This document shows, one piece after another, positions 4,611-62,016 of a stretch of DNA of 64,000 nucleotides. This stretch comes from an uncultured Christensenellaceae bacterium. GTDB lineage: Bacteria > Bacillota > Clostridia > Christensenellales > UBA3700. Numbering within the stretch: position 1 is the stretch's first letter; each line of letters starts with the position of its first letter. The notes below the pieces were generated by a model, which did not search any database, had not been told where the DNA came from, and worked only from the letters and a program-made list of their open reading frames with translations. The stretch spans positions 64,318 through 128,317 of the forward strand of contig CALWKW010000002.1 of NCBI GenBank assembly GCA_944381365.1. Direction: 5' to 3'. A program made the translations under genes and the position numbers.

Positions 4611-4635
4611 ATTCTTTTATAAAACTCTTTGTCTT

Positions 4636-6724: not shown

Positions 6725-6740
6725 CGGATAGCTTTATCAA

Positions 6741-7397: not shown

Positions 7398-7398
7398 T

Positions 7399-8598: not shown

Positions 8599-8954
8599 TG
8601 TAACCTCCGTGTATATGTATTAAATTTTCATTTCCTGAGTAATTATATAAAAAATCAACACAATATTTATTTATTGTATTACGAAAAACATTATTTAACT
8701 GGCAACTGTGTGAATCCATACAGCCTCACTTAAAAATAATAATAACATTCTTATCGAATCTTACACCATTATGATATCATACCCTACAACCAAAATCAAG
8801 CCTTTTAATCTTTTTTTGACACAAAAACTATAATTTTTTGTTATTATTTTATATTAAAAACAGAGTTTTCATAAAACCTATATTATCTCTAAGACATATT
8901 TGATATTATATATATGCTTATTATTCCCTTTTAAGAATTGCAAATTGTACCTAT

Positions 8955-8994
8955 AAAATAAAATACGGCAAGACAAGTCCTGCCGTATTTTTTT
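8955..8994 (-). terminator. Rho-independent terminator after ypeB
   Basis: ATACGGCA...TGCCGTAT stem flanked by A/T runs on both strands (coordinates +/-2). Confidence 0.65.
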
Positions 8995-9029
8995 GCCGTA
9001 TTCGGCTTTTAAGGGATATATAGATTGTG

Positions 9030-29200: not shown

Positions 29201-30904
29201 AGGCACAAGCTGATTTATAAGATTTGCCATAGCACCGCTTTGCTCGATTCCTAGCATCTCAGATACTTTGACTTTGATTTCTACTCCGAGTATAGACTTT
29301 GATTTGTCGTATGTCATGTTGATAAATTCCGCTTTGATATTGCCAAGCATATTTTCGTCATTGACATACTTTGTGAGCATATTCGCAAGTGCTACATAAC
29401 TTGTTTTCGCTCTGTAATACACATTAGAATATTCATTTGTATATTGCATATTCTTTATCTGAATATTCTGCAAGAAATTTTGACTGCTTGCGAGATTTAC
29501 CACATCGGATATTGTGTTTGTAGTAGTGATAATGTTTTGTGAATTGTCAATGCAATATTTGTCTACCAAATCATTGACAAATGTAGTTGTTTCCTGCTCT
29601 TTTCTCTCGGGAGTATAGATATCATAACCCAATGATTCTTCAGTGGGAAGTTTGATATCTCTCATCATATACAAAAATGCTTGTTCGCTGATATCCACTT
29701 TGAGAGTTTTCATCAAAGTTTCGATAGGATACATATCCACACTTCCCGAGTTGACGAAACTGAGAGGTATTTTTTCTTGAGCTTTTTCGAGCACCTCTAC
29801 TACTTTTGTATTAACTTTAACAAGCATATCGTGAATATTGAACTCTACTTTTGCTTTTTGCAAAACTACATCGACAATGCTCACTATTTTATCCACATTG
29901 ACTTCGCTAAGCTGATTCAACGAAGCCTGAACAGCCTTTGTATTGTCAAAAGGATATACAATAACCGTAGCATAAAGATGCTTGGGTATGAGATTTTTCA
30001 AAAACGGAGGCAATCCCTTGTCATCGATAGTCTTTGACAAAGCGTCTCTTGCATTAAGACCTACTGTGAGTTTGAGCTGAACATCCTGAGGTTTTGTAAT
30101 ATCGCTGTTGATGATAATCTGCTTGACCTCAATCAATTCTTCTAAAGGTTTGCCAAGCTTTTCTTCTACACTGTTTATCTGAGGGAATATATCGCTAAGC
30201 GAGCCGTAAATCTCATCTATCACAGCAGCAAGCTGCTTGTCAGAAATCTCTAAAATATTCTTTTCGCCTTTGTAGTTTTCCAGGGAAGAAAAATCAAACT
30301 CGAGCTCTTGCAAAAAAGCATCAAGAGCCTCATTTCCCGTGCTTCCGGGATTTGTATTTTCGTCTTGAGATGTATCTTGATTTTCGTCTGCCAAAGCGAT
30401 TTCACTCTCTACCACTCTGCCGTCAGAATAAGTATATACATATCTTAGGTCATAGCCGTCTGTGCCAACGGTACTTACTTGAGGTTCTGACGAATCTTCT
30501 GTGGTAGTCTCGCTATTTCCGAAAATGCCGCTCAAAAGCTTTGTAATATCCAAATCATAGTCTGCTGAAAGATACAACTTGTTTTTAATATTGGTATAAA
30601 AAATTTCGAGGTCGTCTTCAGAATATTTGTTGACTACGATTTTGCTCTCGTCTGTCTTGCTTACGCCGTTGAGAATGCCAAACAATTCGTTGAAAGCTAC
30701 ACCCGATTCTTCGCCAATCTCCTTGTTCCAATAATATTCTGCAATTTTATATCCGCCGAAAGCAAGTCCGAATATGCCTGCCAAAAAAACAACCACGCAT
30801 ATACATGCAATGATAGCACCCGTCTTCTTGTTTATTCTGTTGTGACGGATAGCTCTCTCGTTTCTTTCTATATCAACCTTTCTGACCTGTTTTTTCTTTG
30901 CCAT
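26246..30904 (-). CDS. 1552-aa membrane-anchored protein of unknown function
   Basis: Basic N-terminus and a single TM helix (GAIIACICVVVFLAGIFGLAFGG), then about 1480 aa with no repeats or motifs I recognise. Single uninterrupted ORF. Confidence 0.8.
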   Translation of the reverse strand: MAKKKQVRKVDIERNERAIRHNRINKKTGAIIACICVVVFLAGIFGLAFGGYKIAEYYWNKEIGEESGVAFNELFGILNGVSKTDESKIVVNKYSEDDLEIFYTNIKNKLYLSADYDLDITKLLSGIFGNSETTTEDSSEPQVSTVGTDGYDLRYVYTYSDGRVVESEIALADENQDTSQDENTNPGSTGNEALDAFLQELEFDFSSLENYKGEKNILEISDKQLAAVIDEIYGSLSDIFPQINSVEEKLGKPLEELIEVKQIIINSDITKPQDVQLKLTVGLNARDALSKTIDDKGLPPFLKNLIPKHLYATVIVYPFDNTKAVQASLNQLSEVNVDKIVSIVDVVLQKAKVEFNIHDMLVKVNTKVVEVLEKAQEKIPLSFVNSGSVDMYPIETLMKTLKVDISEQAFLYMMRDIKLPTEESLGYDIYTPERKEQETTTFVNDLVDKYCIDNSQNIITTTNTISDVVNLASSQNFLQNIQIKNMQYTNEYSNVYYRAKTSYVALANMLTKYVNDENMLGNIKAEFINMTYDKSKSILGVEIKVKVSEMLGIEQSGAMANLINQLVPEEIFVKANICLDENLNIVTTMDVNKVGVEKSKEHLATLTALANSFGMNVENIDYDKICQQIDSGVRQGLQKIKDALNCDIIFEEEGAYLPNVFELVSANEKVNGNLEEGEHIITDGEVWELMKGLYDYEYVDDGSFVPADNISNFIDELYNKFFISDSFKQELIDSQANETFLDVLKKGVGVNFGTDKVRLKDKTIELPDGGFEIIDGIMSKNNITPVYNEQYITEKFKPVFMIEEIAYLINTQSQILSSLSFLKDLKVIYAYNNTDEMSLIVEGKGNIEDQSINSLLPEKINVNIILNLGEINADGTRDDLLVNSLKVNDIGDMSQSASMNRLDLLLLFISRISRGSDLEQEEMTTESTKKKIEEGLNEDIYEEDGVTVKTVCLKNQIHNDVYTVTFLEDGGFRVNQTIYEIVINELYKTEDGSEPDESEIPSENDFRNAICKINNMPDSTIYTSSDRKDFVIDLLVGNKAENANNAIDEINNKYFLNDSHKLSYDITKGNVFDSISAKATSYATSINGQAMANTALSFNELKPVIDGSEMLVMLENSITITAKGYENAKMTGLYITRSSSAMTADKGELLLVFNSPLDKSIVDAKYQELMPDKLALLVLVDMNKLSAEICTNIYVNDLTTSEMFAINALMKKVTDEKQPDGSTSPMDINEVNSQCSESVKKTMSELTNNMQLTLTEGITSETEGVQSTTPGQISLESIYEVASKKLSTQDNEITPSDLQSVLKALFANFELNGYTEGATNITDTADESQKNNYNIFIEGNIIDMSATVEGAIGEGNLMSKLDMSKIGQSFNVTSAEQTAFIPMLANDSQNDFAILRDEFRLDDTKEYFVITFKISSKDIVGNTTSSEEITILPQHIYTTFCVDLSSDTSDIHITYNKLDSQQEKTLESIISKNQGETPDSCLSKEKLDSMKSDLLSTVLLNYTYEGYGQMQLTLDDVIKSNSIIIRPNDNTNTAVDGKGMMTFNITKAMERF

Positions 30905-35826: not shown

Positions 35827-36309
35827 CTATCTTTCCTCCAACAAATTCTTGAGTTTTTCTCTTGCCCTGCAAAGTCTTATGTTTATAGAATTTGCACTTT
35901 TGCCTGTTATTTTTGCTATCTCTTTTATGCTATACCCTTCATAGTAGTACAGATATATCACATTTCTGTCAAACTCCGGCAAAAGGGTTATTTCCTCCAA
36001 TCCGTCTTCATGCGTATATGTCGGCACCTTTATGTTTTCATCGAGAGCAAGCACTTTTTTCCTCATTGATTTGAGATAGTTTTTGCTCTTGTTTATCGCC
36101 ACTCTTATGAGCCAAGCTTTGAGATATTCTTCTGTCTTGAATGGCATTTTTTTGAGCATTGCCATAAAAACATCTTGTACAATATCCTCAGATTCGCTAG
36201 AGTTTCGGGTATATTGATATGCCAATCTGAACAACATGTCGCTGTATGTATTGACAATATAATTTATATCCTTTATATCTTTATCTCCCATTTTGTCCCC
36301 GTTGTTCAA
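35827..36309 (-). CDS. ECF-type RNA polymerase sigma-70 family factor
   Basis: Region 2 (YSDMLFRLAYQYT...DIVQDVFM) and region 4 HTH (YSIKEIAKITGKSANSINIRLCRAREKLK). Confidence 0.85.
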   Translation of the reverse strand: MNNGDKMGDKDIKDINYIVNTYSDMLFRLAYQYTRNSSESEDIVQDVFMAMLKKMPFKTEEYLKAWLIRVAINKSKNYLKSMRKKVLALDENIKVPTYTHEDGLEEITLLPEFDRNVIYLYYYEGYSIKEIAKITGKSANSINIRLCRAREKLKNLLEER

Positions 36310-36312
36310 ATT

Positions 36313-37062
36313 TTATATCGTTCCTATTTGCCTCAAAACAAAATAATCCTGCGTAGTCAAAAATTCTGCATTCCTTACTGCGTCATCTACCGAAAATTCA
36401 CTAGGTTGTATGCCGTCTACCAATTCCCAATTTGTCTTTTTGAGAAAAACAGCTTCTTTGATACCGCTTTCTTTAAATGCCGAAGAATATAAATGCGTCA
36501 AACTTGCAGGAAAAACTACGCTTGTAATATTTTTACATCCTTGAAAAGCCGATTCTCCTATTTTTAAAAGGCTTTCGGGAAATACTATATCAGATATACT
36601 TGTACCTAAAAAAGCTCTGCTGTATATTATTTCCACGCCATAAGGTATATTTATTTTTGTGAGATCACTGCAACCCTGAAATGCACTAGTTCCTATATCG
36701 ACAATACTTTCAGGTAATACAACCTCTTTTAGACCGCTATAATAAAATGCATTATTATCTATTGATTTTACGCCATAAGGTATATTTATATAAGTGAGAT
36801 TTTTACACGAATGAAATGCACTTTTTCCGATAACTTCCAAAGTACTTGGAATTTGCACCTCACTGACACTGCTGAATGCAAAAGCAGATTCATTCAAAGT
36901 CGTAAGTCCCTCGGGAAGATTAATTTGAGAAAGATTTTCACATTCATAAAAAGCATATTCTTCTATTGTCTTTAAGTTTTCAGAAAACTTAATATTCTGA
37001 ATACTGCTATAAGCAAAGGCACCTTTGTTTAACCCTGTTAGAACACCATATAAGATTGCCAC
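36313..37062 (-). pseudogene. BspA-type leucine-rich-repeat protein, 5-prime truncated at the element junction
   Basis: About 23-aa LRR units recur (IPxGVxxIxxxAFxxCxxL). There is no signal peptide, the track start is a GTG, and an in-frame TAG lies immediately upstream, exactly where GC content rises. Confidence 0.6.
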
Positions 37063-39638: not shown

Positions 39639-39902
39639 ATGAAATCCGTAATCTGGGATCTCTACCACGGCAATATATGCGGCAAAGACATCAAAGTCCC
39701 CGTTAAAGACCGCAAAGAAGAGTTCGCCGTGTATGACAAATTAAAGGCTACCATCTCGGAAGAGAGCAACGCCCTCTTTGAGGAATTTCTCGAACTTTCC
39801 TCCGAAAGTCAAGACGCAGCCATGCTTATGACTTACAAACGCGGCGTAGCGTTTGGGCTGTTGCTTGCCTTCGAATCGTTTGAACAAGGAGATGAATTAT
39901 GA
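39639..39902 (+). CDS. hypothetical small protein, 87 aa
   Basis: AAGGAGG RBS. Its stop overlaps the next start (ATGA). Confidence 0.55.
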   Translation: MKSVIWDLYHGNICGKDIKVPVKDRKEEFAVYDKLKATISEESNALFEEFLELSSESQDAAMLMTYKRGVAFGLLLAFESFEQGDEL

Positions 39903-40888
39903 AACAACTGAATTTGGAAGCGAAAACCAAAGAACAGCAGCGTATCAAAGCCTACCTCGAAGAAAACGCCTCGGATATCCTTGTAGGGAAAATCAACAAC
40001 GGCGTTCTCATCAAGAAAGACGGAAGGATCCTGCTCAACCGCAAAACAATGGACGGCTTTATGTCCTTTGCGACCGAAGAAGCGAGAAAGCAAGCCGAAA
40101 AGGGCGCAAGATACGCTATGGTTGAAGACGATGTCGTATTCGGCTGGGCTGTCCACTATTTCCAAGAGGACAGCATCGAAGGCACGCTCTTTAACGAGGA
40201 CGGCTCCGAATATAAGACGCAGCCAAAACCGGCAGCAAAGGCGCCTGCGGTGAAAGCGCAACCCAAACCGCAGCCCAAGCCGCAGATGTCTATGTTCGAC
40301 CTTATGGGAGAAGACCTCGAAGGCAAGCCCGAAGACAACGAGGATACTATGCCGTCTGATGAAGAGATACAGGAGATCATGGCGGAAATAGCCGAGGAAG
40401 AAAAGGCGAAACAACAAAAGCCCACGACCTCTCCCGTATATCGGAAGTATCTTGAGGTGCAAGACAGGTATCCGCAAGCAATTATCGCCATGCGCTTGGG
40501 CGACTTCTATGAAGTGTTCGGCAAGAACGCAGAGGTACTTGCAAACGAACTTCCTCTTACCCTTACAGGACGGAACTGCGGACTTGAAAGCCGTGTGCCG
40601 ATGGTCGGATTTCCGTATCACACTGCGGAGATGTACTTCGGCAAAATCTTGAGCAACGGGCATACACTCGTCGTCATGGAAAACGACGATGAAATGCGCG
40701 AACTGCCTGCGAAACAGGAAGTAGACCTTGAAACAAGCGAGATACTCTCCGAAGAAGAGATGCGCGAGTTTGACGGCGACATCGAAGAGCCGAAAGACCT
40801 TGACGATGACATTGACGCTTCCGCCTTCGATAGAGACGCGCTCTGTAAGCTGGACGAAATGTTCGGCGACAAACTTACTTTGAGGTGA
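39899..40888 (+). CDS. fusion protein: PcfK/AcrIIA9-like N-terminal domain + acidic/Pro-Lys linker + MutS domain I (mismatch-binding domain) homolog
   Basis: The N-terminus (RIKAYLEENAS...VEDDVVFGWAVHYFQEDSIEG) matches the PcfK-like pattern as I remember it. The C-terminus (YRKYLEVQDRYPQAIIAMRLGDFYEVFGKNAEVLANELPLTLTGR...VPMVGFPYHTAEMYFGKILSNGHTLVVME) aligns by eye to the MutS N-terminus (QYLxxKxxxPxxxLxxRxGDFYExF...LTxR...IPMxGxPYH...Y). Confidence 0.65.
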   Translation: MKQLNLEAKTKEQQRIKAYLEENASDILVGKINNGVLIKKDGRILLNRKTMDGFMSFATEEARKQAEKGARYAMVEDDVVFGWAVHYFQEDSIEGTLFNEDGSEYKTQPKPAAKAPAVKAQPKPQPKPQMSMFDLMGEDLEGKPEDNEDTMPSDEEIQEIMAEIAEEEKAKQQKPTTSPVYRKYLEVQDRYPQAIIAMRLGDFYEVFGKNAEVLANELPLTLTGRNCGLESRVPMVGFPYHTAEMYFGKILSNGHTLVVMENDDEMRELPAKQEVDLETSEILSEEEMREFDGDIEEPKDLDDDIDASAFDRDALCKLDEMFGDKLTLR

Positions 40889-40892: not shown

Positions 40893-42212
40893 ATGAAAGA
40901 AACAGACATCAGACCTATCCCGAAAAACATCCTGAAAAGGATACGGAAACTTGACGGCAAATACTATCCAAGCCCAGACGGTCATGTGCGCTGCTACGCC
41001 TACCTGACCACTTGGAAAAACGAGCTTGTGAAGGTAACCATCGCCGTAAAACACCGCTACAAAAAGTGGTACTGCAAACAGGTCGCAATTCACGGATTGG
41101 ATTCGGATAAGTGCTTTGTGAAAGACATGGAATATTGCTATTGCGCCGGCATGGGATTCCGCTTCGGCTGGTACGAAGAAGGCTTGCAGAAATACAAGCA
41201 ATGGTACGAACGCGGCTGGTGCTGGGCTTACGACAAATACTATGATCCCTTCGCGGAGATCGTAAATCCGCACTTCATAGACCGCTTGCCGGAGTTCAGA
41301 TATTCCGCGTATAAAATGTATCAGGGCTGCAATATTTTCAAGTATTTACGGCTCTACCGACAGTATCCGCAGCTCGAAATGCTGATGAAGCTCGGCTTTT
41401 CACGGATCGCGTTGAGCAAAACGATACTCAAACGCTGCGGCACGGACAAAGCCTTCTGCAAGTGGCTTATCGCAAACAAAGCGGCGCTTCGGGACAGGCA
41501 CTACTACATAGATGTCATCGTCCGAGCGTATAAAACCAAGAAGCCGCTCGAACAGCTTCAACACTACAAGGAAGCAAAACTTCGGCTGATCCATGACAGC
41601 GCGCTCGAACCGTTAAAGGAGCTGTTCAAAGGCAAGGAACTTGAACGGCTCTTTGATTATGTCGCGGAGAAGCGCACCAATCCGCATACCTATCTCGACT
41701 ATCTCAAAGCCTGCCAAAATCTCGGTTTGGATATGTCCGAAGAGAAGAACCGCTTCCCACACGACTTCAAACGCTGGCACGACATCCGCATAGACCAATA
41801 CGCCGCGAAAAAGGCGATGGAAGATGCGGAAAAGCGCAAAGAATTGTACGCGCAATTCGCCGCCGTTGCGGAGAAATATCTGTCCCTGCAACACGCGAAA
41901 CGAAGCGCGTTTATCTGCGTCATCGCAAAAAGTCCTGCTGACCTTATCCGTGAGGGTGAAGCGTTGCACCATTGCGTGGGACGGATGAACTACGACCAGC
42001 GTTTTGTCCGCGAAGAATCGCTCATCTTCTTCGTCCGAGCAAAGGAAAGCCCGGATATTCCGCTCGTGACGCTCGAATACTCGCCGCGCAGTCACAAAGT
42101 CCTGCAATGCTACGGCGAACACGACCACAAACCAAGCGAAGATGTACTGCACTACGTCAACAAAATATGGCTGCCTTATGCCAACAGACAAATAAGACAA
42201 ATTGCCGCATAG
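40893..42212 (+). CDS. PcfJ-like protein
   Basis: C-terminal LIREGEALHHCVGRMNYDQRFVREESLIFFVR...LVTLEY is the PcfJ signature as I recall it. It follows a PcfK-like gene, as on pCF10. Confidence 0.65.
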   Translation: MKETDIRPIPKNILKRIRKLDGKYYPSPDGHVRCYAYLTTWKNELVKVTIAVKHRYKKWYCKQVAIHGLDSDKCFVKDMEYCYCAGMGFRFGWYEEGLQKYKQWYERGWCWAYDKYYDPFAEIVNPHFIDRLPEFRYSAYKMYQGCNIFKYLRLYRQYPQLEMLMKLGFSRIALSKTILKRCGTDKAFCKWLIANKAALRDRHYYIDVIVRAYKTKKPLEQLQHYKEAKLRLIHDSALEPLKELFKGKELERLFDYVAEKRTNPHTYLDYLKACQNLGLDMSEEKNRFPHDFKRWHDIRIDQYAAKKAMEDAEKRKELYAQFAAVAEKYLSLQHAKRSAFICVIAKSPADLIREGEALHHCVGRMNYDQRFVREESLIFFVRAKESPDIPLVTLEYSPRSHKVLQCYGEHDHKPSEDVLHYVNKIWLPYANRQIRQIAA

Positions 42213-42224: not shown

Positions 42225-42509
42225 ATGGCAAACTATTTTAGAATTACAGCATATCACCCGACCGAAAATCTCTCGGTCATTATGGATTCAAACGGACTGT
42301 TTGAAAAACTCTGGCAATTCTCGTCCTTTATGGTATCCAAAGGCTTCAAAATCATTGAAGTCGGGGGCGAAGACAAATTCAACGAAGGCGATATGCCAAA
42401 AGTCGAACCTGACAATACTCATGTTATCGTTCGTGCTTGTAAAAGCGGTCTACCGGAAATTACAGGCAACTGCATTACGGTAGAAGGTAAATCATACTCC
42501 ATTATATAA
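42225..42509 (+). CDS. hypothetical protein, 94 aa (last gene of the + array)
   Basis: AGGAGG RBS, followed by a strong terminator. Confidence 0.55.
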   Translation: MANYFRITAYHPTENLSVIMDSNGLFEKLWQFSSFMVSKGFKIIEVGGEDKFNEGDMPKVEPDNTHVIVRACKSGLPEITGNCITVEGKSYSII

Positions 42510-42512
42510 AAT

Positions 42513-42537
42513 AAAAAGCCGCTTGTTGCGGCTTTTT
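42513..42537. terminator. bidirectional Rho-independent terminator at the backbone/cargo boundary
   Basis: AAAGCCGC-TTGTT-GCGGCTTT followed by a T-run (coordinates +/-2). Confidence 0.7.
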
Positions 42538-42556
42538 ATGGCTTTTATCTCTACGA

Positions 42557-45373
42557 TTATATATTAGTATATTTATTCTTTCTTGCCAAAAACGCTTCCT
42601 TCCCTCCTTCAAGTATATTGCAAATATGCTGTTGAATACCCCTTGAACCTAAGAAAGTATCTTCGTCTATAATTGTAATATTTTCAATCGCGCCAGATCT
42701 ATATTCAAACCTAAATGATTTATTGTTTGTTTGTGCATTACTGTCAATTTGCTGATTTGCTACAATAACTTCTTCAGCATCGCAACCCAGTACCAAATTT
42801 GCATTGTGTGTAACTAATATAATTTGTCTATCCTTTTTTCTATCCCTTATAAACGAAACCAAATCAGAAACTATAGATAAATTATCCAAATCGTCCTCAG
42901 GCTGATCTAATAATATCGGGCATTTAGATTCGTCGTGACTAATAAGTAACTTTAATAATACTAACGCCTTTTTCCCTGGTGACATATTTTCAATTTGATC
43001 ACCATCCATTTCAATAGTATATATAATATTGTCAAAATCACTTAAAAGTTCTTGCAAAGCGTGATTTTTATCATATTTGCTCAATAAAACTTTTTGAGTA
43101 TCATTTCCTAAAATTGCGTTAATATAATCTTTTTTACAATCCTCATCAAACTCAGATTCTAAAATAAATTGTTCATTATCTAAATCTCGGAATACGCCAT
43201 TATGAATACTTTTTAAGGCACTTTGTGTGAATATTTTAGTGATCGTTTCCTTAAACAAAGACCTACGACGACGTTTTATCGCAACAATTTTAAAGTTTTC
43301 ATCGGTATCTTTAAATTGAATACTCTTAAATTCACTTTCAAACAAATCATATTCCGCCTCGCGTGATGTTGTTAATGAAAGAATTGAATTTATTAAATCA
43401 TCTAATGCTTTTCGTAAATTTCTTAGAATCTCATATTCATCATTAATTTTTCTCAACTGTTCCTCTTCAGTCCGTAAATCTCCTTCAAGCTTTTTAATTT
43501 CTGCATTATTATCAATCATCGGTTTAAGCCCATTAATGATCTCCATAATCTTGGCATATTCCACTTGCAATGCCTCTAATCGATCAGATATAGAATCAAG
43601 AATTTTAGCTTTAGATTCTTGCCATGATTGTTTCGCTTCTTCAGAGATAACTTTAGCAACTTCGCTTACTTTCTTAGCAATCGCTGAATCCATTAAATCC
43701 TCAATATCAATTTTAACAAAAACATCTTCACTATTCTCGATCCGCTTCTTATCTGCAGTAAGCATTTGAATATTTTTTTCTATTAAAATTTTATCTTCAA
43801 CAGCTTTATCAAATCTAGCGATATCATCTGTAGATATGTTTAATGTTTTTGCTAAAGCTTCTTTTCTTTGACGCAGCAATTCTATATTATTTTTTACAGA
43901 TTCTATTCCTCCTAAATCCTTTATTAATAAAACTTGGGAATCAAATTCTTTCTTTTTATAAACCAATTCCAATATTTTTGAATCAATCTGCTTTTGTATA
44001 TCTATATTTTTTGCATCAAATGATCTACGCAGATCACAAAAAGCTTTATTTTGACAGATAATGTTTTCAATAATTTTATCTATTTCCGTCTTTTCCGCAC
44101 GGTCATCCATTAATTTGTTAAGATATGATTGTGCAATATATACAATTTTCTTATCGTCGCTTGAGCCATTATATGAAATAGCCCCATCTTTCCAATGAAC
44201 TTTAACAGGAAATTCTAAAGGCTTTTTTTTACCATTATAAACAGTCTCAAGACGTGAAGAAACTTCTGATGAATCAATAGCTCGCGCTATATTTTGAAGC
44301 AGTATAGATTTTCCTGTAGATTTTAATCCAATTATACAAGTTAAATTTTGATTAATTGGAAGCATTTCGTTGGAAAAACGATGAGGCACAACATTATCTT
44401 CTATAACAATGCCGTCTATAATCCTATAATTGTCTACACGATCTGCAGGGCAAAATTCCTGAATACGAACACGCTCAATTGGCTCGCAAAGAATTTGACG
44501 CAGCCCTTCCCAAGTAGGATCAGCTTTTATCCAACAATATCTTTTTGTAGATTTCCCTTGGTTATCAAGGGGTTCAAATATTGCATTATTAGTATGCGCA
44601 TCACATCCCCAAACACACGGCATAATTTTACTAGGTTTTTTATCTTTTTCTCCAGAAAAAAACTTAATATCCGATGGATTAGCAGATAATATCAAATCAG
44701 AAACCATATAAAGATCTCTTCTATATTCTAATAAATCTACTAAATCCTGGGAAGGACTACTTGGATTACCTACAGCTGAGGCCCCATCAGTACTTTTATT
44801 TGGCATTAGAACCAATACGTTATCCTTACATTCTGGATAATTATTAAATATTTTGATTATGTCATCAAAATTTATATGAAACTCTTCAACTCCTTTTTTA
44901 TATGCACGTTCATCATCTAGTCCAGGGACAAGTTCCTTCCCATAACGAATCAAGTCATCTTTACGCGCACAATAAGTACTTGTTGCAGACTTGTAGATTA
45001 AATTGCTTAAAATAATAGTATCTACTCTATCCACAAAAGAAGGATTGATTAAAAGATGTACATTCATTTTAACTCCATCTTTTAATGGCAAGCATCTCAA
45101 CTCAATATTAGGAAATATAAAATCTATATTTTGATCAAGAATACCATCGGCTTTTATCTTCTTGTAGTTTTCAATAGAAAAATAATCGGTAATGCCTACT
45201 GCTGCAATTTTTCTTTGAGGATCACTTCCATCACCGATGTAATTTTTTATATCTTGATAAAACCTTGCCCATTTTTCATCGTTATCACCATGAAACTGGT
45301 CATTTTTCTTAGTATTAGGTGTATGAAGATGAAAATCCCACCTTCGCCATTCTGAACCTCTTGAATAATCCAT
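42557..45373 (-). CDS. PHP-domain phosphoesterase fused to an ABC/SMC-like ATPase with a long coiled-coil insertion (Ppl/PplA-like defence protein)
   Basis: PHP motifs WDFHLHTP, ITDY, NIEL, NVHLL, GCDAHT. Walker A GLKSTGKS, about 370 aa of K/E/L-rich heptad-like sequence, signature-like MSPGKKAL, Walker B ILLDQPEDDLD, and H-loop VTHN. Confidence 0.8.
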   Translation of the reverse strand: MDYSRGSEWRRWDFHLHTPNTKKNDQFHGDNDEKWARFYQDIKNYIGDGSDPQRKIAAVGITDYFSIENYKKIKADGILDQNIDFIFPNIELRCLPLKDGVKMNVHLLINPSFVDRVDTIILSNLIYKSATSTYCARKDDLIRYGKELVPGLDDERAYKKGVEEFHINFDDIIKIFNNYPECKDNVLVLMPNKSTDGASAVGNPSSPSQDLVDLLEYRRDLYMVSDLILSANPSDIKFFSGEKDKKPSKIMPCVWGCDAHTNNAIFEPLDNQGKSTKRYCWIKADPTWEGLRQILCEPIERVRIQEFCPADRVDNYRIIDGIVIEDNVVPHRFSNEMLPINQNLTCIIGLKSTGKSILLQNIARAIDSSEVSSRLETVYNGKKKPLEFPVKVHWKDGAISYNGSSDDKKIVYIAQSYLNKLMDDRAEKTEIDKIIENIICQNKAFCDLRRSFDAKNIDIQKQIDSKILELVYKKKEFDSQVLLIKDLGGIESVKNNIELLRQRKEALAKTLNISTDDIARFDKAVEDKILIEKNIQMLTADKKRIENSEDVFVKIDIEDLMDSAIAKKVSEVAKVISEEAKQSWQESKAKILDSISDRLEALQVEYAKIMEIINGLKPMIDNNAEIKKLEGDLRTEEEQLRKINDEYEILRNLRKALDDLINSILSLTTSREAEYDLFESEFKSIQFKDTDENFKIVAIKRRRRSLFKETITKIFTQSALKSIHNGVFRDLDNEQFILESEFDEDCKKDYINAILGNDTQKVLLSKYDKNHALQELLSDFDNIIYTIEMDGDQIENMSPGKKALVLLKLLISHDESKCPILLDQPEDDLDNLSIVSDLVSFIRDRKKDRQIILVTHNANLVLGCDAEEVIVANQQIDSNAQTNNKSFRFEYRSGAIENITIIDEDTFLGSRGIQQHICNILEGGKEAFLARKNKYTNI

Positions 45374-45391
45374 ATATTCTCCTTATAAAAT

Positions 45392-46357
45392 TTAGCTCAA
45401 CAATAACTTTGCGACTTCTTTAGCAACATACCAAAACATAACAGGGGCAATTGCGTTGCCTAACGCACGATATTGGGCGCCTTCAGACCCAATGAGCACA
45501 AAAGATTCTGGGAAAGACTGGATACGAGCAACTTCACGAGGAGTAAAACGCCTAAATCTACCATTATCCAAAAGAACAGGATCTGTACTATTCAAAGAAA
45601 CCTTTGCTAAATGAGCTCCAACCGTATTACACGGTTGATTAATATCTTGCGCTCGTCCCTTATTCATCGTCTCTCGCTTTTTCATCATACCTGCTATGGC
45701 TTTATCGCTAAAGAAATATTTTTCAGGAACTGCATTCTCAATAACTTGAGATAAAGTTGATATGGGGAGATCTCCTTCTTTAGGTAAGCACTCAAAATCG
45801 AAAATCGTATTTAAGTCCTTCCTAATACCAACAATGATAACCCTTTCTCTCTTTTGCGGAACGCCAAAATCAACCGCATTCAACAACTTAAAAGAAACAT
45901 TATAACCACTGTCCTCAAACTCCTTAATTATCAGGGGGAAAGCACTTTTCCCATTAGCCGACAAAATTCCTTTAACATTCTCAGCAATAAAACACCGAGG
46001 CTTTTTATCCCTCAAAATCCTGCACATTTCAAAGAAAAGTTTGCCTCTATCATCTTTGACTCCTAACCGCTTTGGATTCTGTGCAACAATAGAAAAAGAT
46101 TGACACGGGAACCCACCGGTCAAAATATCAATTTCGGGAATTTCAGCTGAACCAACGGATCTAATATCTCTATTATCTGGTTTAATCCCAAAATTTCGCT
46201 CAAATATGGCGCAAGCATTTTCATCTATATCATTAGCATAGACTATCTCGATTGGATTCTCATCGTATTTTTTGCCTAAAAAAACAAAATCACCAAGCAA
46301 ACCAACATCTGTACCACCGCAACCACAAAACAATGACGCAACTTTTAACTTACCCAT
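45392..46357 (-). CDS. DNA (cytosine-5)-methyltransferase (second MTase of the cassette)
   Basis: Motif I LFCGCGG, IV GFPCQSFS, VI ENVKG, VIII QKRERV, X GNAIAP. Confidence 0.9.
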   Translation of the reverse strand: MGKLKVASLFCGCGGTDVGLLGDFVFLGKKYDENPIEIVYANDIDENACAIFERNFGIKPDNRDIRSVGSAEIPEIDILTGGFPCQSFSIVAQNPKRLGVKDDRGKLFFEMCRILRDKKPRCFIAENVKGILSANGKSAFPLIIKEFEDSGYNVSFKLLNAVDFGVPQKRERVIIVGIRKDLNTIFDFECLPKEGDLPISTLSQVIENAVPEKYFFSDKAIAGMMKKRETMNKGRAQDINQPCNTVGAHLAKVSLNSTDPVLLDNGRFRRFTPREVARIQSFPESFVLIGSEGAQYRALGNAIAPVMFWYVAKEVAKLLLS

Positions 46358-47754
46358 GTCAACAACTCCTCAAAATTACCCGCAGTCGCTATTTCAAATG
46401 TAATTTCTGCACCATCTTTAGGTATCATATTGATGATATCTTTTTTATATAATCCAACAGGGTCTTGAATTACATACAACTTTTTCTCTAATTTACTTAT
46501 CATCAAACGATATACAAAATACCTATCCTTCATTGATCCAGCCGTATTCCACTCATTCGGTGTCATATGAATTTTATTAAAATGTAATGGTTTGGAACTA
46601 ATGGTTGTCTTTACTTCTATATAACGCTTCCGTTCATCAAGTTCGACGGATTGAATATCATATCCGACAGCGAATTGTGTAGGGATTCTTTTAATTAAAT
46701 GAATCAAATCAATTCTTCCACCATTTTTAATACGTTGGCACTCATGCGAATGAACTAAACTCTCCCCGATATCTCCAATATCTTTGGTTTTAATATCTTC
46801 TTGATCTAATAACTGTGAATAAGTTTCATCTCTATTGCGTTGTAATTCTTCATATTCTTTTGTACTTGAAGAAATAAAAGCCAAGATATCTGTTGTAAAA
46901 TCAGTATGACTCATATCTCTGTTAACATAATTATACCAACCTACTGTACACGATTTTATATCTTCTAATGTAGCATACCTTCTTGAGATCATTAAATCAT
47001 ACGCATTAAACCATTCAGTTGAATTAATAAATTTCAAAATAGCTTCATTTTCTAACGTGTTAGTGTAATAAGCCTTACTATCATGGGACACTAACAAATT
47101 GGCAATTTCCATATAGTCGATAATATCACCAGCATATCTAATTATATCGCCGGTAGAATCATACTCTATAGAATCATCTCTATTTTGTTTAATACGATGC
47201 CATGTATCCAACGGAGTTTCAAGTCCAGTAGTACAGCGCAAATCATTAAATATACAATGGCAGACCTCCTCTTTCGATAAACCAATTCTTTTACCAGTTT
47301 CTTGTTCGGCCGCTTGAAATACTTTTAATATGTACTGTACTGGCTTGAAATGAATGCCAGCTTCGATTTGCTTTAACACCTCGTGAGGTTTAATATGCGC
47401 GCCCGGATATTGAAAAGAATATAAAAAAACCTTAAAGGCTTCAACCAAATCTTCTTTTTCTGCCAATTCAATTGCACGCTGTCCGGGAGAAGTCGTACCA
47501 TTATCGACAATGTAAAAACCGAAGAGTGAAGAAATTTCAGTTCTCCAGTTATTAATCGTTTTGATTTTCCTTATTGCATTTCCCGGATATCTACGAATAG
47601 CATCATTTAATTGTTCTGCAAAATCTTTCTCAGATTGTGCAGGTATTTGCGCAATTTCTGTTGCCATATAAATAAGAACATTTTCTATATCCCCCTTGAA
47701 ACGAGGACGTACATGATGTATTCTAAAATAATACTTTTCAGGCACCTTGTACAT
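46345..47754 (-). CDS. putative type II restriction endonuclease with C-terminal PD-(D/E)xK (DUF3883-like) domain
   Basis: C-terminus GDIGESLV...GYDIQSV...RYIEVKTT...EWN...YFVYRL fits a D...EVK nuclease core. The gene is sandwiched between two MTases and overlaps the downstream one by 13 nt. Confidence 0.6.
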   Translation of the reverse strand: MYKVPEKYYFRIHHVRPRFKGDIENVLIYMATEIAQIPAQSEKDFAEQLNDAIRRYPGNAIRKIKTINNWRTEISSLFGFYIVDNGTTSPGQRAIELAEKEDLVEAFKVFLYSFQYPGAHIKPHEVLKQIEAGIHFKPVQYILKVFQAAEQETGKRIGLSKEEVCHCIFNDLRCTTGLETPLDTWHRIKQNRDDSIEYDSTGDIIRYAGDIIDYMEIANLLVSHDSKAYYTNTLENEAILKFINSTEWFNAYDLMISRRYATLEDIKSCTVGWYNYVNRDMSHTDFTTDILAFISSSTKEYEELQRNRDETYSQLLDQEDIKTKDIGDIGESLVHSHECQRIKNGGRIDLIHLIKRIPTQFAVGYDIQSVELDERKRYIEVKTTISSKPLHFNKIHMTPNEWNTAGSMKDRYFVYRLMISKLEKKLYVIQDPVGLYKKDIINMIPKDGAEITFEIATAGNFEELLTWVS

Positions 47755-47759
47755 ATTTG

Positions 47760-48851
47760 TTACTCCTTTATATATTTTAACAACTGTTGCGCTATTGCTT
47801 GAGCCATAAGGGGTGGCACAGCATTACCTACTTGTCTAAATTGCTGAGTTTTATTTCCTAAGAAAATAAAATCATCTGGGAAAGATTGCAATCTTGCACA
47901 TTCCCTTACAGTTGGAACACGATTATATTTATAATGGAAATGATGCCTATGACCGGTGTCTATTGTAGGAGCTGGTTTGTTGCTATCAAATCTAGTCCAT
48001 GCAACATGAAAATTTCTACTACTTCTGTAAGCTTCGGGCAAATCTTTATAGTTGCCTCCATCAGGAACCATACTAATTATCTTTTGAACCTTTTCTGAAT
48101 GAACAGCCGCTATATGATTTTTCACTACACTTGAATGCTGTCTCATCAATTCCTGATATTGACAAGTACACTCCGTTGCATAACTTTGAGTTTCCTCACC
48201 TAAAGAATCAATCAAGGGAGGCAAATCACTTAATGCCATAGAACACGTTACTTTATCTTTCTGTGTGGGCGGAAATTCGAACTCGCCATTTTTAAGTCCA
48301 ACAAAAACCACTCTGCGTCTTGTTTGCGGAACACCATAATCTGCAGCACAAATAATTTGATATCTAACAGTATATCCCAAATCTGTAAGGCGCTTTATTA
48401 TACTATCTTTTATTTGACCGCCAAATAAAGAGACTAATCCCGGAACATTTTCAATAACAAACGCTTTCGGTTTAATTTCTTCTACCAACCTAATATAAGA
48501 TAAATATAATTTGTTTCTAGGGTCATCAAAACGCCGAGGTCCAGATAAAGACATTCCTTGACAAGGGGGACCGCCAATAATAACATCTATTGTTTTATTG
48601 CCTGTCGCTTTATCAATATCCTGCTTATGCAAAACAGTAATATCGCCACAAATTGATTTAGCGCCTTTATGATTAAGTTCAAATGTTTCTAATGCCTTTT
48701 TATCATTATCTATGCCAAGAACTATATTATACCCAGCACTTTCAAAACCATATGATAAACCGCCACAGCCACAAAATAGATCCAATACATTAATCATAAT
48801 TTTACTTTTCACCTTTCGCATTTTTTCGTCCATCAATAGGCTTTTCTGCAT
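47760..48851 (-). CDS. DNA (cytosine-5)-methyltransferase (first MTase of the cassette)
   Basis: Motif I LFCGCGG, IV GPPCQGMS, VI ENVPG, VIII QTRRRV, X GNAVPP. The true start is probably the ATG at 48797 (MINVLDLF) or 48821, just after or overlapping the HTH gene. Confidence 0.9.
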   Translation of the reverse strand: MQKSLLMDEKMRKVKSKIMINVLDLFCGCGGLSYGFESAGYNIVLGIDNDKKALETFELNHKGAKSICGDITVLHKQDIDKATGNKTIDVIIGGPPCQGMSLSGPRRFDDPRNKLYLSYIRLVEEIKPKAFVIENVPGLVSLFGGQIKDSIIKRLTDLGYTVRYQIICAADYGVPQTRRRVVFVGLKNGEFEFPPTQKDKVTCSMALSDLPPLIDSLGEETQSYATECTCQYQELMRQHSSVVKNHIAAVHSEKVQKIISMVPDGGNYKDLPEAYRSSRNFHVAWTRFDSNKPAPTIDTGHRHHFHYKYNRVPTVRECARLQSFPDDFIFLGNKTQQFRQVGNAVPPLMAQAIAQQLLKYIKE

Positions 48852-48987
48852 TAATCGGAATAGCCCAATTTTCCCCTAATTTGAACACACCGGGAATTCG
48901 ATTTTCCATACATAGGATTTGAACTCTTCGCTGCGAAATATTCCATTTTTTTGCAGCTTGGCTGGCTGTCATAAATTGATTTGTCAT
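48802..48987 (-). CDS. small helix-turn-helix DNA-binding protein (MerR/excisionase-like); candidate controller of the cassette
   Basis: MTASQAAKKWNISQRRVQILCMENRIPGVFKLGENWAIP, with an AAGGAG RBS. It is the first gene of the operon. Confidence 0.7.
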   Translation of the reverse strand: MTNQFMTASQAAKKWNISQRRVQILCMENRIPGVFKLGENWAIPINAEKPIDGRKNAKGEK

Positions 48988-49022
48988 AATAGCTCCTTAT
49001 ATTGTTCCACGGGACGAATGAT

Positions 49023-49051
49023 ATTATAGCATGAATAAAATAAATTTTCAA
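49023..49051 (-). promoter_or_regulatory. near-consensus sigma-A promoter driving the defence operon
   Basis: On the minus strand: TTGAAA, 17 nt, TATAAT, about 35 nt upstream of the HTH gene ATG. Confidence 0.55.
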
Positions 49052-60969: not shown

Positions 60970-62016
60970 TCAGTTTTTTCTGAAATAAAACGTTGCTTTG
61001 CCTTTCCCTTCTCTGCCGATTATTCCTTCTTGTACTAAGGACTTTAACGCATTCTCTACTGATGCTTTGCTGACAGAGGGAACATATTCCATTATATCGT
61101 TCTTTGTGAACTTTCCTATTGTATTTCCTACTGCTTTTCTTACCAAATCAATAGTAGTTACCTTGCCCTCTACAATGGTTACTCTTTCCTCGAAATCCCT
61201 GTATGCAGCCAAAATCGTACCGAGAATATACTTGATAAACGGCGTTATATCGTTTCCTTCGCGATGCCAATCTATATCGCTTTTCTCCAATGCGTCATAA
61301 TAACTGTCTTTCGTTTTCTCGATCTTACTCTCCAAACTCACATACTTTCCTACGACATAACCCGCACGGTAAAGGAGCAGCGTCGTAAGAAGTCTGGACA
61401 TCCTTCCGTTTCCGTCATTAAAAGGATGAATACACAAGAAGTCGACAATAAATGCGGGGATCAAAATCAAAGGATCTATTTCGCACACATCCATCTCCCT
61501 GTTAAAACTATCGCATATTGCCTCGATTGCCATAGGCGTTTCAAATGGTTCAAGCGGCATAAATCGAACATATTGTTCTCCGCTTTCTTTTATCTCCGCA
61601 ATATAATTTTGTATATTTTTAAACCTTCCGCCGATTCCTTTTTGTGAATAACGATATAAGACCTGATGCAGTTGCAGAATATAAGAGGGCTTGATAGGAA
61701 TGTATTCGTAACTTTCGTGTATCAAAGCCAATGCATCCCGATAACCCGAAATTTCTTCCTCATCTCTGTTTCTCGGCGTGGTTTTTTGCTCGCACAACTG
61801 CTTGATTCGAGTTGCCGTAGTCACAATCCCTTCTATTTTATTGGATGCCTCCGTGCTTTGTATTTTAGCTATCTCCACGAGTTTTTCCAGCGTTGCGGGC
61901 TTTTGCCTTAAAAATAACATCTGCTTCCCCTTGTATTCGTGAATTTGAGCAACCAACCCAAGCACTTCACTATCCCACCTCACCTCTTTTAATCTACCGT
62001 AATTAAAATTTCTCAT
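60970..62016 (-). CDS. Fic-family protein (AMPylase-type) with intrinsic inhibitory helix and C-terminal winged helix
   Basis: Fic motif HPFNDGNGRMSRLL. Upstream S-x-x-x-E-G inhibitory motif (SNKIEG). Confidence 0.9.
   Translation of the reverse strand: MRNFNYGRLKEVRWDSEVLGLVAQIHEYKGKQMLFLRQKPATLEKLVEIAKIQSTEASNKIEGIVTTATRIKQLCEQKTTPRNRDEEEISGYRDALALIHESYEYIPIKPSYILQLHQVLYRYSQKGIGGRFKNIQNYIAEIKESGEQYVRFMPLEPFETPMAIEAICDSFNREMDVCEIDPLILIPAFIVDFLCIHPFNDGNGRMSRLLTTLLLYRAGYVVGKYVSLESKIEKTKDSYYDALEKSDIDWHREGNDITPFIKYILGTILAAYRDFEERVTIVEGKVTTIDLVRKAVGNTIGKFTKNDIMEYVPSVSKASVENALKSLVQEGIIGREGKGKATFYFRKN

What the first reader, a model, noticed from the sequence alone, without database searches (positions are those of the whole stretch)
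42557..45373. 938-aa PHP phosphoesterase fused to a Rad50/SMC-like ABC ATPase (Ppl-like): an SbcCD-analogous single-chain effector
All PHP metal-binding motifs are visible (HxH in WDFHLHTP, ITDY, NIEL, NVHLL, GCDAH). They are followed by a split ABC ATPase head: Walker A GLKSTGKS, then SPGKKA, ILLDQPEDDLD and VTHN. The two halves of the head are separated by about 370 aa of heptad-like K/E/L-rich sequence, which is the Rad50/SbcC layout.

As I recall, Gao et al. 2020 reported a single-gene PHP + ATPase defence system (ppl) whose mechanism is unresolved. Here it is the terminal gene of an R-M operon. That placement suggests it may act on DNA ends or on unmodified DNA produced by the restriction step.
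Basis: partly seen in the sequence, partly recalled or inferred. Interest (0 to 1): 0.65.

Follow-up and report, generated by a model that had tools for sequence, protein, structure and literature searches.

The report
TrlF-family PHP nuclease–ATPase behind restriction operon
The gene is real and encodes a metal-dependent phosphoesterase fused to an SMC/Rad50-like ATPase, but it belongs to the already catalogued TrlF family, a distant relative of the anti-phage protein Ppl; the mildly new point is that TrlF genes repeatedly sit as the last gene after restriction-modification genes.

Summary

**Structure.** Models confirm an N-terminal PHP fold. They also confirm a split ABC ATPase head interrupted by about 240 helical residues (not about 370), with no zinc hook.

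**Family.** The protein is a full-length, above-threshold member of NCBIfam NF045780, "TrlF family AAA-like ATPase". It fails the Ppl model (70 bits against a cutoff of 1000). Direct comparison with E. coli Ppl shows collinear distant homology with the same architecture.

**Context.** The gene is the last of a four-gene Type IIS R-M operon: m5C MTase, BpuJI-like REase, m5C MTase, then TrlF. This operon is low-GC cargo on a higher-GC integrated element.

**Link to R-M.**
- A 94%-identical copy stands alone beside an integrase in at least four genomic sites, so R-M is not obligatory.
- Across 80 species-level loci, 32 have R-M genes nearby. In 23 of those 32 the nearest R-M gene is upstream and co-oriented (P=6e-8).
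- All R-M types are represented.

**Literature.** Ppl's mechanism is no longer unresolved (Xu et al., Mol Cell 2026).

**Verdict.** This is a new member of a known kind, of moderate-to-low interest. The recurrent "R-M then TrlF" arrangement is the part worth testing.

The parts
42557..45373 (-). TrlF-family gene (938 aa): PHP phosphoesterase + ABC ATPase with coiled-coil insert
   Evidence: ORF. NCBIfam NF045780 scores 508.6 bits against a cutoff of 350, aligned over aa 5-935. There are 1,367 cluster-50 relatives at E<=1e-30.
44459..45349 (-). PHP domain (aa 9-305); metal ligands H15, H17, D63, E91, H106, D258, H260
   Evidence: AF2 domain model has pLDDT 86.8. Its top 27 Foldseek PDB hits are all PHP domains. 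The ligand residues are 95-100% conserved in 134 representatives.
44099..44419 (-). ABC ATPase N-lobe (aa 319-425): Walker A GLKSTGKS (K355), Q-loop Q415
   Evidence: SMC_N and AAA_21 hits.
43328..44047 (-). Helical arm (aa 443-682): ascending helices 443-546, non-conserved apex 547-562, descending helices 563-682
   Evidence: DSSP of the AF2 model. Foldseek matches to Smc/JetC/Rad50 heads with coiled coil. Heptad periodicity is z=6.1 in the descending arm only. There is no conserved Cys.
42569..43294 (-). ABC ATPase C-lobe (aa 694-935): signature SPGKKA, Walker B ILLDQPE, D-loop, H-loop THN, C-terminal EGGKxAF
   Evidence: PADLOC Ppl E 5.6e-16 on this part. BLASTP to Ppl at 32% identity.
45379..45384 (-). 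Ribosome-binding site AAGGAG, 5 nt before the ATG; 18-nt gap after the upstream MTase stop
   Evidence: Sequence read.
42511..42539 (.). Bidirectional intrinsic-terminator-like hairpin (12-bp stem) just after the TrlF stop
   Evidence: It lies inside the 170 bp of downstream DNA that travels with the solo TrlF copies.
45392..46357 (-). m5C DNA methyltransferase M2 (321 aa)
   Evidence: PF00145, E 1.9e-73.
46345..47754 (-). BpuJI-like Type IIS restriction endonuclease (469 aa)
   Evidence: PF11564 BpuJI_N at 353 bits plus NOV_C. PADLOC REase_II.
47760..48851 (-). m5C DNA methyltransferase M1 (363 aa), first gene of the operon
   Evidence: PF00145, E 7.9e-82.
49023..49051 (-). Promoter-like site (TTGAAA-17-TATAAT, TG extended) upstream of M1
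   Evidence: 11 of 12 matches. This is a consensus match only.
42500..49000 (.). Low-GC (~34%) cargo block (R-M + TrlF) inside a ~50% GC element (~37.1-58.9 kb) in a ~37% GC host
   Evidence: Composition profiles.

Best explanation
The gene encodes a TrlF-family protein. This is a single-chain, horizontally mobile defence-type nuclease that is homologous in architecture to the anti-phage protein Ppl.

The N-terminal PHP domain is the metal-dependent phosphodiesterase, most likely an exonuclease acting at DNA ends. The SMC/Rad50-like ABC ATPase is split by a ~240-residue helical arm. It is the nucleotide-binding regulatory and DNA-engaging module, and it presumably dimerises head-to-head on ATP.

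By analogy with Ppl, nuclease activity would be held off by cellular NTPs. It would be released on DNA carrying free 3'-OH ends or overhangs.

In this window the gene is co-transcribed as the last gene of a BpuJI-type Type IIS R-M operon, carried as cargo on an integrated element. The protein can work on its own. Where it follows R-M genes, restriction breaks in unmethylated invader DNA plausibly supply the ends it attacks, turning repairable cuts into irreversible degradation.

**Shown:** the ORF, domain folds, conservation of both active sites, family membership, operon layout, mobility as a single-gene cassette, and the statistical polarity relative to R-M genes.

**Inferred:** nuclease activity and polarity, NTP gating, dimerisation, the defence phenotype, and synergy with restriction.
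For: **Family and relation to Ppl**
- NF045780 is met over the full length.
- PGAP annotates homologs as TrlF on hundreds of mostly conjugative plasmids.
- Homology to Ppl is collinear.

**Structure and conservation**
- PHP fold.
- SMC/Rad50-like head plus arm.
- Both catalytic centres are 95-100% conserved across 134 diverse representatives.

**Ppl biochemistry (from the literature)**
- Ppl is a ssDNA 3'-5' exonuclease, inhibited by NTPs and triggered by 3'-OH ends (PMC12904381; Xu et al. 2026 as cited).

**Operon signals**
-.

**Mobility and autonomy**
- The 94%-identical P0001 lies next to xis/int in at least 4 different chromosomal sites.
- DNA homology there is limited to the gene plus 170 bp downstream.
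- The gene has 31% GC in 42-61% GC flanks.

**Defence-island contexts**
- The same element carries a swapped AlwI-type R-M.
- Type III R-M.
- SbcCD-like genes plus an NgoFVII/PLD-helicase.
- A Gabija-like pair plus Abi on an IncI plasmid.
- Wadjet-like genes in Flavobacteriia.

**R-M polarity**
- In 23 of 32 loci the nearest R-M gene is upstream and co-oriented (P=6e-8).
- This holds in 11 of 17 independent TrlF clusters (P=8e-4).
- It spans Types I, II, IIG and III.
Against: - I found no experiment on any TrlF-family protein showing nuclease activity or phage defence.
- The only genetic study, of the Photorhabdus temperature-restriction locus, found no mutations in trlF. It mapped the phenotype to trlG, which is absent here (PMC7554251).
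- Similarity to Ppl is weak in the PHP domain (E 0.17 to the PADLOC model), so substrate and polarity may differ.
- PHP structural neighbours include RNase AM and a nucleotide bisphosphatase, so an RNA or nucleotide substrate is not excluded.
- The R-M adjacency statistic lacks a baseline from other defence genes. It uses only recurrent neighbour clusters.
- The AF2 full-length pTM is only 0.55. I could not inspect coordinates to verify antiparallel packing of the arm.
Confidence: 0.6

Rival explanations
1. R-M guard or backup (PrrC/RloC/PARIS logic). TrlF is kept silent by, or monitors, the neighbouring R-M complex. It fires when a phage anti-restriction factor disables restriction.
For: - TrlF is embedded in or appended to R-M operons, including between hsdS and hsdR with 19-nt and 6-nt gaps in L076. 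It also lies directly after hsdS or hsdR in L057, L065 and L053.
- The orientation bias is strong.
- The best sequence-level PDB match of the ATPase is AriA of PARIS, a sensor of the anti-restriction protein Ocr (PMC11464382 listed).
- From memory, not tested here: PrrC is embedded in the EcoprrI hsd locus, and RloC is a Rad50-like ATPase-nuclease fusion linked to R-M loci.
Against: - One and the same TrlF lineage is paired with unrelated R-M types. Specific protein-protein sensing would therefore have to be generic.
- The 94% homolog and many others have no R-M neighbour.
- The AriA match is marginal (E 0.0025).
Confidence: 0.15
2. Fully autonomous single-gene defence. The position behind R-M genes reflects only defence-island clustering and cassette insertion at operon ends, with no functional interplay.
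For: - Solo copies beside integrases.
- No universal neighbour among 80 loci; the largest neighbour cluster covers 11 of 80.
- Between the window and L006, the R-M proteins are 85-89% identical but TrlF only 71%. The two parts therefore have different histories.
- Diverse defence neighbours.
Against: The upstream, co-oriented bias (P=6e-8, and P=8e-4 after collapsing lineages) is not expected from mere co-location. Tight 6-28-nt junctions imply co-transcription.
Confidence: 0.2
3. Housekeeping DNA-repair or growth-control enzyme. Either an SbcCD/Mre11-Rad50 analogue for host break or hairpin processing, or a stress-induced growth-arrest module as in the Photorhabdus TRL locus.
For: - Rad50/SMC-like head and arm.
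- The PHP domains of Pol III and PolX are DNA exonucleases (one search hits).
- The family name derives from a temperature-restriction operon.
Against: - Patchy distribution, location on plasmids and integrated elements, and atypical GC.
- It sits next to bona fide SbcD-SbcC genes in P0082 loci rather than replacing them.
- There is no trlG or trlR partner here or among the recurrent neighbours.
- trlF itself was not implicated in the TRL phenotype.
Confidence: 0.05

Closest known systems
TrlF family AAA-like ATPase (NCBIfam NF045780; named after trlF of the Photorhabdus laumondii temperature-restriction locus, Hapeshi et al. 2020, PMC7554251)
   Same: Full-length equivalog-level match (508.6 bits against 350, aa 5-935 of 938). 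Same length class (~900-990 aa) and the same conserved motifs.
   Different: The Photorhabdus gene sits in trlR-trlF-trlG. Here there is no TrlG or TrlR, and the partners are Type IIS R-M genes. No biochemical function is established for the family.
Ppl (Gao et al. 2020; NF042955 / PADLOC PDLC02208; mechanism in Xu et al., Mol Cell 2026)
   Same: Single polypeptide with an N-terminal PHP (HxH at residues ~15, GxDAH) followed by an ABC ATPase with a helical insert. It shares an identical LLDQPEDDLD Walker B/D-loop, an SPGxK signature and an EGGxxAF tail. The BLASTP HSPs are collinear and hhalign gives probability 99.3.
   Different: It fails the Ppl family cutoffs (70 bits against 1000). Only the C-lobe aligns confidently. 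The TrlF PHP domain is ~45 residues longer, and overall identity is below detection in the arm. No activity data exist for TrlF.
SbcCD / Mre11-Rad50
   Same: A Rad50/SMC-type split ABC head with a coiled-coil arm, coupled to a metal-dependent nuclease that acts at DNA ends (structural matches).
   Different: The nuclease is a PHP domain, not a calcineurin-like Mre11/SbcD. It is fused in cis at the N-terminus. The arm is short (~100-120 residues per strand) and lacks the CxxC zinc hook. The Walker B is DQPE, the AAA_21/OLD/AriA type. TrlF can lie next to true SbcCD.
R-M-linked ABC ATPase-nuclease fusions PrrC and RloC; OLD-family, GajA, and AriA-AriB (PARIS)
   Same: An ABC ATPase regulates a nuclease effector in defence. 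PrrC and RloC are classically embedded in or linked to Type I/III R-M loci (from memory). AriA is the best sequence-level PDB hit.
   Different: Those effectors are anticodon nucleases or Toprim domains placed C-terminal or in trans. Here the effector is an N-terminal PHP. No evidence for tRNA targeting was obtained here.

Membership tests
TrlF family AAA-like ATPase (NF045780) | Whole-protein score above NCBI's curated cutoff, with end-to-end alignment | tested here: met
   508.6 bits against a cutoff of 350. Protein aa 5-935 align to model positions 1-943 of 944.
TrlF family AAA-like ATPase (NF045780) | Genomic partnership with trlG (AlbA_2 + HATPase_c_4) and trlR, as in the founding locus | tested here: not met
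   The neighbours are m5C MTase, BpuJI-like REase and PcfJ. No such cluster appears among the recurrent neighbours of 80 loci. The paper itself reports three-gene synteny only in Photorhabdus, V. anguillarum and a Yersinia plasmid, so this is not a family-defining trait.
Ppl (NF042955 / PADLOC Ppl) | Score above the curated cutoff of the Ppl equivalog model | tested here: not met
   69.8 bits against a cutoff of 1000, covering only aa 791-932. The PADLOC Ppl model scores 53.6 bits over aa 491-931.
Ppl (NF042955 / PADLOC Ppl) | Architecture: N-terminal PHP plus C-terminal NTPase in one chain | tested here: met
   Collinear HSPs to E. coli Ppl at the HxH motif, at GxDAH through Walker A, and at the C-lobe. 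Folds confirmed.
Ppl (NF042955 / PADLOC Ppl) | 3'-5' ssDNA exonuclease inhibited by NTPs and activated by 3'-OH overhangs; anti-phage phenotype | not testable with these tools
   These properties are known for Ppl only from the literature. No experiment exists for this protein.
PHP superfamily (PF02811-type) | Distorted (beta/alpha)7 barrel with His/Asp/Glu metal ligands (HxH, D, E, H, DxH) | tested here: met
   The fold was matched by Foldseek: the top 27 hits are all PHP domains (E 4e-6 to 2e-2). The ligand residues are 95-100% conserved. At sequence-profile level there is no Pfam or PDB hit.
Rad50/SbcC (SMC-like) ATPases | Split ABC head (Walker A, Q-loop, signature, Walker B, D-loop, H-loop) with an intervening antiparallel coiled coil | tested here: met
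   All motifs are present and conserved. Long helices lie at 443-546 and 563-682. Foldseek matches Smc, JetC, Rad50 and MukB (E 3e-10 to 1e-5). Antiparallel packing could not be inspected directly.
Rad50/SbcC (SMC-like) ATPases | CxxC zinc hook (Rad50/SbcC) or globular hinge (SMC) at the arm apex | tested here: not met
   No column in aa 430-690 has more than 20% Cys in 134 representatives. The apex at 547-562 is the least conserved segment (0.16).

The most novel reading that the evidence does not exclude
TrlF may be a generic restriction-coupled end-processing nuclease. On this reading, whatever the R-M type (I, II/IIS, IIG or III), the upstream enzymes make the first break. The co-transcribed TrlF then loads on the resulting ends and destroys the DNA, or fires when restriction is blocked. 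That would make 'R-M + TrlF' a recurrent two-layer immune operon rather than a chance neighbourhood.
Probability: 0.22. Interest if true: 0.6.

Novelty: new member of a known kind. Interest (0 to 1): 0.33.

Why it matters
As an annotation this is ordinary. PGAP would name the protein automatically, and its relative Ppl already has a published phenotype and mechanism.

Two points could matter:
- The TrlF family is very large: 1,367 50%-identity clusters at E<=1e-30. It spans many phyla and hundreds of conjugative plasmids, yet I found no demonstrated function for it.
- It shows a statistically supported tendency to be the 3'-terminal, co-oriented gene of R-M operons of every type. One TrlF lineage switches between R-M partners.

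If that reflects cooperation, with restriction breaks feeding an end-dependent exonuclease, it would be a simple and testable example of layered immunity encoded in one transcript. It might also explain how weakly cutting or variably cutting enzymes such as BpuJI achieve effective restriction.

Tried and rejected
- **Plus-strand reading.** Translating the given coordinates on the + strand gives only stop-ridden sequence. The gene is on the minus strand.
- **Pfam PHP.** No hit for the query or any of 27 homologs at E<=1. A profile of the N-terminal domain against PDB sequences gave only noise. The PHP call therefore had to be settled by structure.
- **phmmer of the full protein against PDB.** Only coiled-coil noise.
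- **PHROGs.** No family for TrlF or for most element genes, so there is no sign it is a phage gene.
- **Xu et al. 2026.** The paper is not held. Ppl's mechanism is taken second-hand from two papers that cite or summarise it.
- **"Spaf_1101" literature.** It led only to a genome paper with no functional information.
- **BpuJI paper.** Term searches of the original paper (PMC1874659) surfaced no description of the gene organisation or of any accessory gene.
- **TrlG partnership.** Considered and rejected for this locus.
- **Zinc hook.** Rejected.
Full report

Yes. The ORF listing finds a 938-aa ATG-initiated ORF at exactly 42557..45373, on the minus strand. The plus-strand translation is full of stops.
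- PHP motifs: WDFHLHTP, ITDY, NIEL, NVHLL, GCDAH.
- ATPase motifs: GLKSTGKS, SPGKKA, ILLDQPEDDLD, VTHN.

These are not chance strings. I aligned 134 family representatives, each from a different 50%-identity cluster. Conservation was:

| Residue | Conserved in |
|---|---|
| H15 | 95% |
| H17 | 99% |
| D63 | 98% |
| E91 | 99% |
| H106 | 99% |
| D258 | 100% |
| H260 | 99% |
| K355 | 100% |
| Q415 | 100% |
| D823-Q-P | 100% |
| E826 | 99% |
| H856 | 100% |

**2. Domains**

Sequence profiles alone do not establish the PHP domain:
- Pfam reports only AAA_21 (27.5 bits, just over threshold) and sub-threshold SMC_N.
- None of 28 homologs hits Pfam PHP at E<=1.
- A profile of the N-terminal 312 residues finds no solved PHP structure by sequence.

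Structure settles it. An AlphaFold2 model of residues 1-312 has pLDDT 86.8 and pTM 0.88. Its 27 best PDB matches are exclusively PHP domains: Pol III alpha from Taq, E. coli and M. tuberculosis, PolC, RNase AM, BAD_1165 and Cv1693. E-values run from 4e-6 and TM-scores are about 0.37-0.46.

The full-length model has pLDDT 78.9 and pTM 0.55. Its layout is:
- PHP domain, residues 9-305.
- ATPase N-lobe, residues 319-425.
- Ascending helices, residues 443-546.
- Unstructured apex, residues 547-562.
- Descending helices, residues 563-682.
- ATPase C-lobe, residues 694-935.

Foldseek places the ATPase and arm with several SMC-like proteins: Smc head with coiled coil (5xei, E 3e-10), condensin, JetC, Rad50, MukB, Lamassu LmuB and AriA.

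- The helical insert is about 240 residues, not about 370.
- Heptad periodicity is strong only in the descending arm (z=6.1, 0 of 500 shuffles). It is weak in the ascending arm (z=1.2).
- There is no conserved cysteine anywhere in the arm, and the apex is the least conserved segment. So there is no zinc hook or hinge.

The Walker B is DQPE. That is the form I associate, from memory, with AAA_21/OLD-type ABC ATPases, and AriA shows LIDQPE in the alignment.

**3. Which family?**

NCBIfam gives a full-length equivalog match to NF045780, "TrlF family AAA-like ATPase": 508.6 bits against a cutoff of 350, over aa 5-935. Two sister models fail:
- Spaf_1101 scores 95.6 bits against a cutoff of 475.
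- Ppl_antiphage scores 69.8 bits against a cutoff of 1000 and covers only aa 791-932.

PADLOC's Ppl model hits at 53.6 bits over aa 491-931. Split into parts, the N-terminus gives only a faint hit to the HxH region (E 0.17, aa 5-23 to model 3-21). The C-terminal part gives E 5.6e-16.

I retrieved a PGAP-annotated Ppl (WP_059331541.1, 895 aa) from an E. coli IncF plasmid. BLASTP gives three collinear HSPs:
- 4-21 to 2-19, covering the HxH motif.
- 251-387 to 205-324, from GxDAH through the end of PHP to Walker A.
- 772-934 to 751-892, at 32% identity and E 4e-18. This shares LLDQPEDDLD and EGGxxAF.

hhalign gives 99.3% probability. So TrlF and Ppl are distant homologs with the same architecture, but this protein is a TrlF, not a Ppl.

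The name comes from the Photorhabdus laumondii temperature-restriction locus trlR-trlF-trlG. There the phenotype mapped to trlG, and trlF was never hit (PMC7554251).

The family is large:
- 6,835 cluster-50 representatives at E<=1e-3, and 1,367 at E<=1e-30. The full-length ones among the 150 listed are about 900-990 aa.
- At least 416 confirmed loci in species-representative genomes. The 80 retained come from Clostridia, Bacteroidota, Patescibacteria, Corynebacterium, Chloroflexota, Bdellovibrionales and a methanogen, among others.
- 1,102 plasmid records contain TrlF or Ppl homologs, and 821 of those plasmids are conjugative.

**4. Local context**

The gene closes a four-gene minus-strand operon:

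| Gene | Coordinates | Evidence |
|---|---|---|
| m5C MTase M1 | 48851-47760 | |
| BpuJI-like REase (BpuJI_N 353 bits + NOV_C) | 47754-46345 | |
| m5C MTase M2 | 46357-45392 | |
| TrlF | 45373-42557 | |

Supporting signals:
- The M2-TrlF gap is 18 nt, with AAGGAG five bases before the ATG.
- The best promoter-like site (11 of 12, TG-extended) lies upstream of M1 at 49051-49023.
- A 12-bp-stem bidirectional terminator at 42511-42539 follows the TrlF stop.

BpuJI is a Type IIS enzyme (5'-CCCGT) that cuts at multiple positions 2-23 nt from its site (PMC1874659).

Composition shows nested foreign DNA:
- Host DNA is about 37% GC.
- An element at about 37.1-58.9 kb is about 50% GC. It carries a rolling-circle Rep-like gene, PcfJ and PcfK/MutS_I genes.
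- Inside that element, the R-M + TrlF block at 42.5-49.0 kb is about 34% GC, with sharp edges.

**5. Is TrlF tied to the R-M system?**

Evidence against obligatory coupling:
- The closest homolog (P0001, 94% aa) occurs in at least four different chromosomal neighbourhoods. It sits immediately after an excisionase-like HTH_17 gene and a tyrosine integrase, with no R-M genes next to it.
- DNA homology to the window runs from 11 nt inside the start codon to 170 bp past the stop, at 92% identity. That span includes the terminator and nothing upstream.
- That copy has 31% GC, in flanks of 42-61% GC.
- So the gene moves and presumably works as a single-gene cassette.

Evidence on the related elements:
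- A 70% homolog (P0008) keeps the whole BpuJI R-M + element context.
- Between that locus and the window, the R-M proteins are 85-89% identical, TrlF 71% and the backbone proteins 44-62%. The parts have different histories.
- A 63% homolog (P0016) sits in the same element slot but behind a different Type IIS-like system, AlwI-family REase with a fused double Dam-type MTase.

Other contexts found:
- Convergent with Type III Mod-Res.
- Directly after SbcD-SbcC-like genes and an NgoFVII/PLD-helicase.
- Between a Gabija-like pair and an Abi gene on an IncI plasmid.
- Directly upstream of Wadjet-like genes in four Flavobacteriia.

Evidence for a non-random link comes from 80 species-representative loci. 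I called ORFs, clustered the neighbours and annotated the recurrent clusters.
- No neighbour is universal. The largest cluster, m5C MTase, covers 11 of 80 loci.
- 32 of 80 loci have an R-M gene within 7 kb or less. This is a lower bound, because singleton neighbours were not annotated.
- 13 loci have an R-M gene within 300 nt, and 11 of those are co-oriented.
- In 23 of the 32 loci, the nearest R-M gene is upstream and on the same strand as TrlF. The expectation is 25.6% (binomial P=6e-8).
- Collapsing to TrlF lineages at 50% identity or more still gives 11 of 17 (P=8e-4).
- Single lineages pair with different R-M types, for example HsdR and m5C; HsdR, IIG and m5C; or ResIII, HsdM and N6N4.
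- Junctions are often operon-tight: 6-28 nt in L053, L057, L065, L075, L076 and L085. In L076, TrlF lies between hsdS and hsdR.

This is more than simple island co-location. However, I have no baseline from other defence genes, so functional coupling remains inferred.

**6. Mechanism**

The best-supported reading is an autonomous Ppl-like defence nuclease.
- The PHP domain hydrolyses phosphodiester bonds at DNA ends.
- The SMC/Rad50-like ATPase binds nucleotide and DNA and controls access.
- For Ppl, the literature reports a ssDNA 3'-5' exonuclease whose PHP and NTPase domains are inhibited by NTPs. It is activated by NTP depletion plus 3'-OH ends or overhangs (PMC12904381; Xu et al., Mol Cell 2026, cited in PMC13434339 and a 2026 preprint).
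- If TrlF shares end-dependence, any upstream R-M system would supply substrates. That would explain the indifference to R-M type and the terminal, co-transcribed position.

All of the following are inferred and untested: activity, polarity, NTP gating, dimerisation and the defence phenotype.

Rivals:
- An R-M guard that fires when restriction is inhibited (PrrC/RloC/PARIS logic).
- Pure island co-location.
- A housekeeping repair or growth-arrest role.

A substrate other than DNA is not excluded, because RNase AM and a nucleotide bisphosphatase are among the structural neighbours.

**7. Novelty and score**

The protein is a new member of a curated, automatically annotated family whose sister, Ppl, is a published defence system with a published mechanism. 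Its family label and its "mechanism unresolved" premise were not.

The residual interest lies in the uncharacterised TrlF family itself and its recurrent "R-M then TrlF" arrangement. Interest is 0.33.

Noticed in passing
window ~37100-58900: A ~22-kb block of ~50% GC sits in a ~37% GC host. It carries a rolling-circle Rep-like gene (PF23343, 49313-50350), PcfJ (40893-42212) and a PcfK+MutS_I fusion (39899-40888). It also has several large ORFs with no Pfam or PHROG hit (709, 691 and 369 aa). Related elements in L006 and L013 keep the same slot between Rep and PcfJ for R-M + TrlF cargo. The element type and its ends were not determined.
   Followed up: partly
L047, L049, L067, L082 (downstream of TrlF, e.g. 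L067 9829-14998): In four Flavobacteriia, TrlF is followed 27-48 nt later by three co-oriented genes. These are a 445-aa protein with no Pfam hit, a 216-aa MksE-like protein and a ~1070-aa protein. The set looks like a Wadjet/JetABC(D) system, so this is a possible TrlF-Wadjet pairing.
   Followed up: partly
L008-L012 (P0082 loci) 1-9805: A widespread gut-metagenome island is seen on 139 contigs. It has a 1051-aa NgoFVII/PLD + helicase + DUF3427 protein, then SbcD-like, SbcC-like and TrlF genes in tight succession, beside a serine recombinase and a Fic gene.
   Followed up: no
L024, L060, L061 (directly downstream of TrlF): A DUF2130 protein (PF09903, ~430 aa, coiled-coil N-terminus) lies 32-249 nt downstream of TrlF and is co-oriented in three loci. 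In L060 and L061, m5C MTases also lie upstream.
   Followed up: no
window 59055-60944 (-) and 60970-62016 (-): A 629-aa protein matches phrog_4031 end to end (558 bits), with weak sub-threshold M78-peptidase and HTH hits. Next to it is a Fic/DOC protein. An HTH + Fic gene also flanks the related element in L006.
   Followed up: no
window 26246-30904 (-): A 1552-aa ORF with no Pfam family at E<=1e-3. It lies in the host-GC part of the window. A BspA-type LRR protein (36313-37062) and an ECF-type sigma factor (35827-36309) lie some 5 kb further on.
   Followed up: no
window 39899-40888 (+): An unusual 329-aa protein combines a PcfK-like N-terminus with a MutS domain I (mismatch-binding domain, E 6e-22) and no MutS ATPase. 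It is conserved in the related element L006.
   Followed up: no
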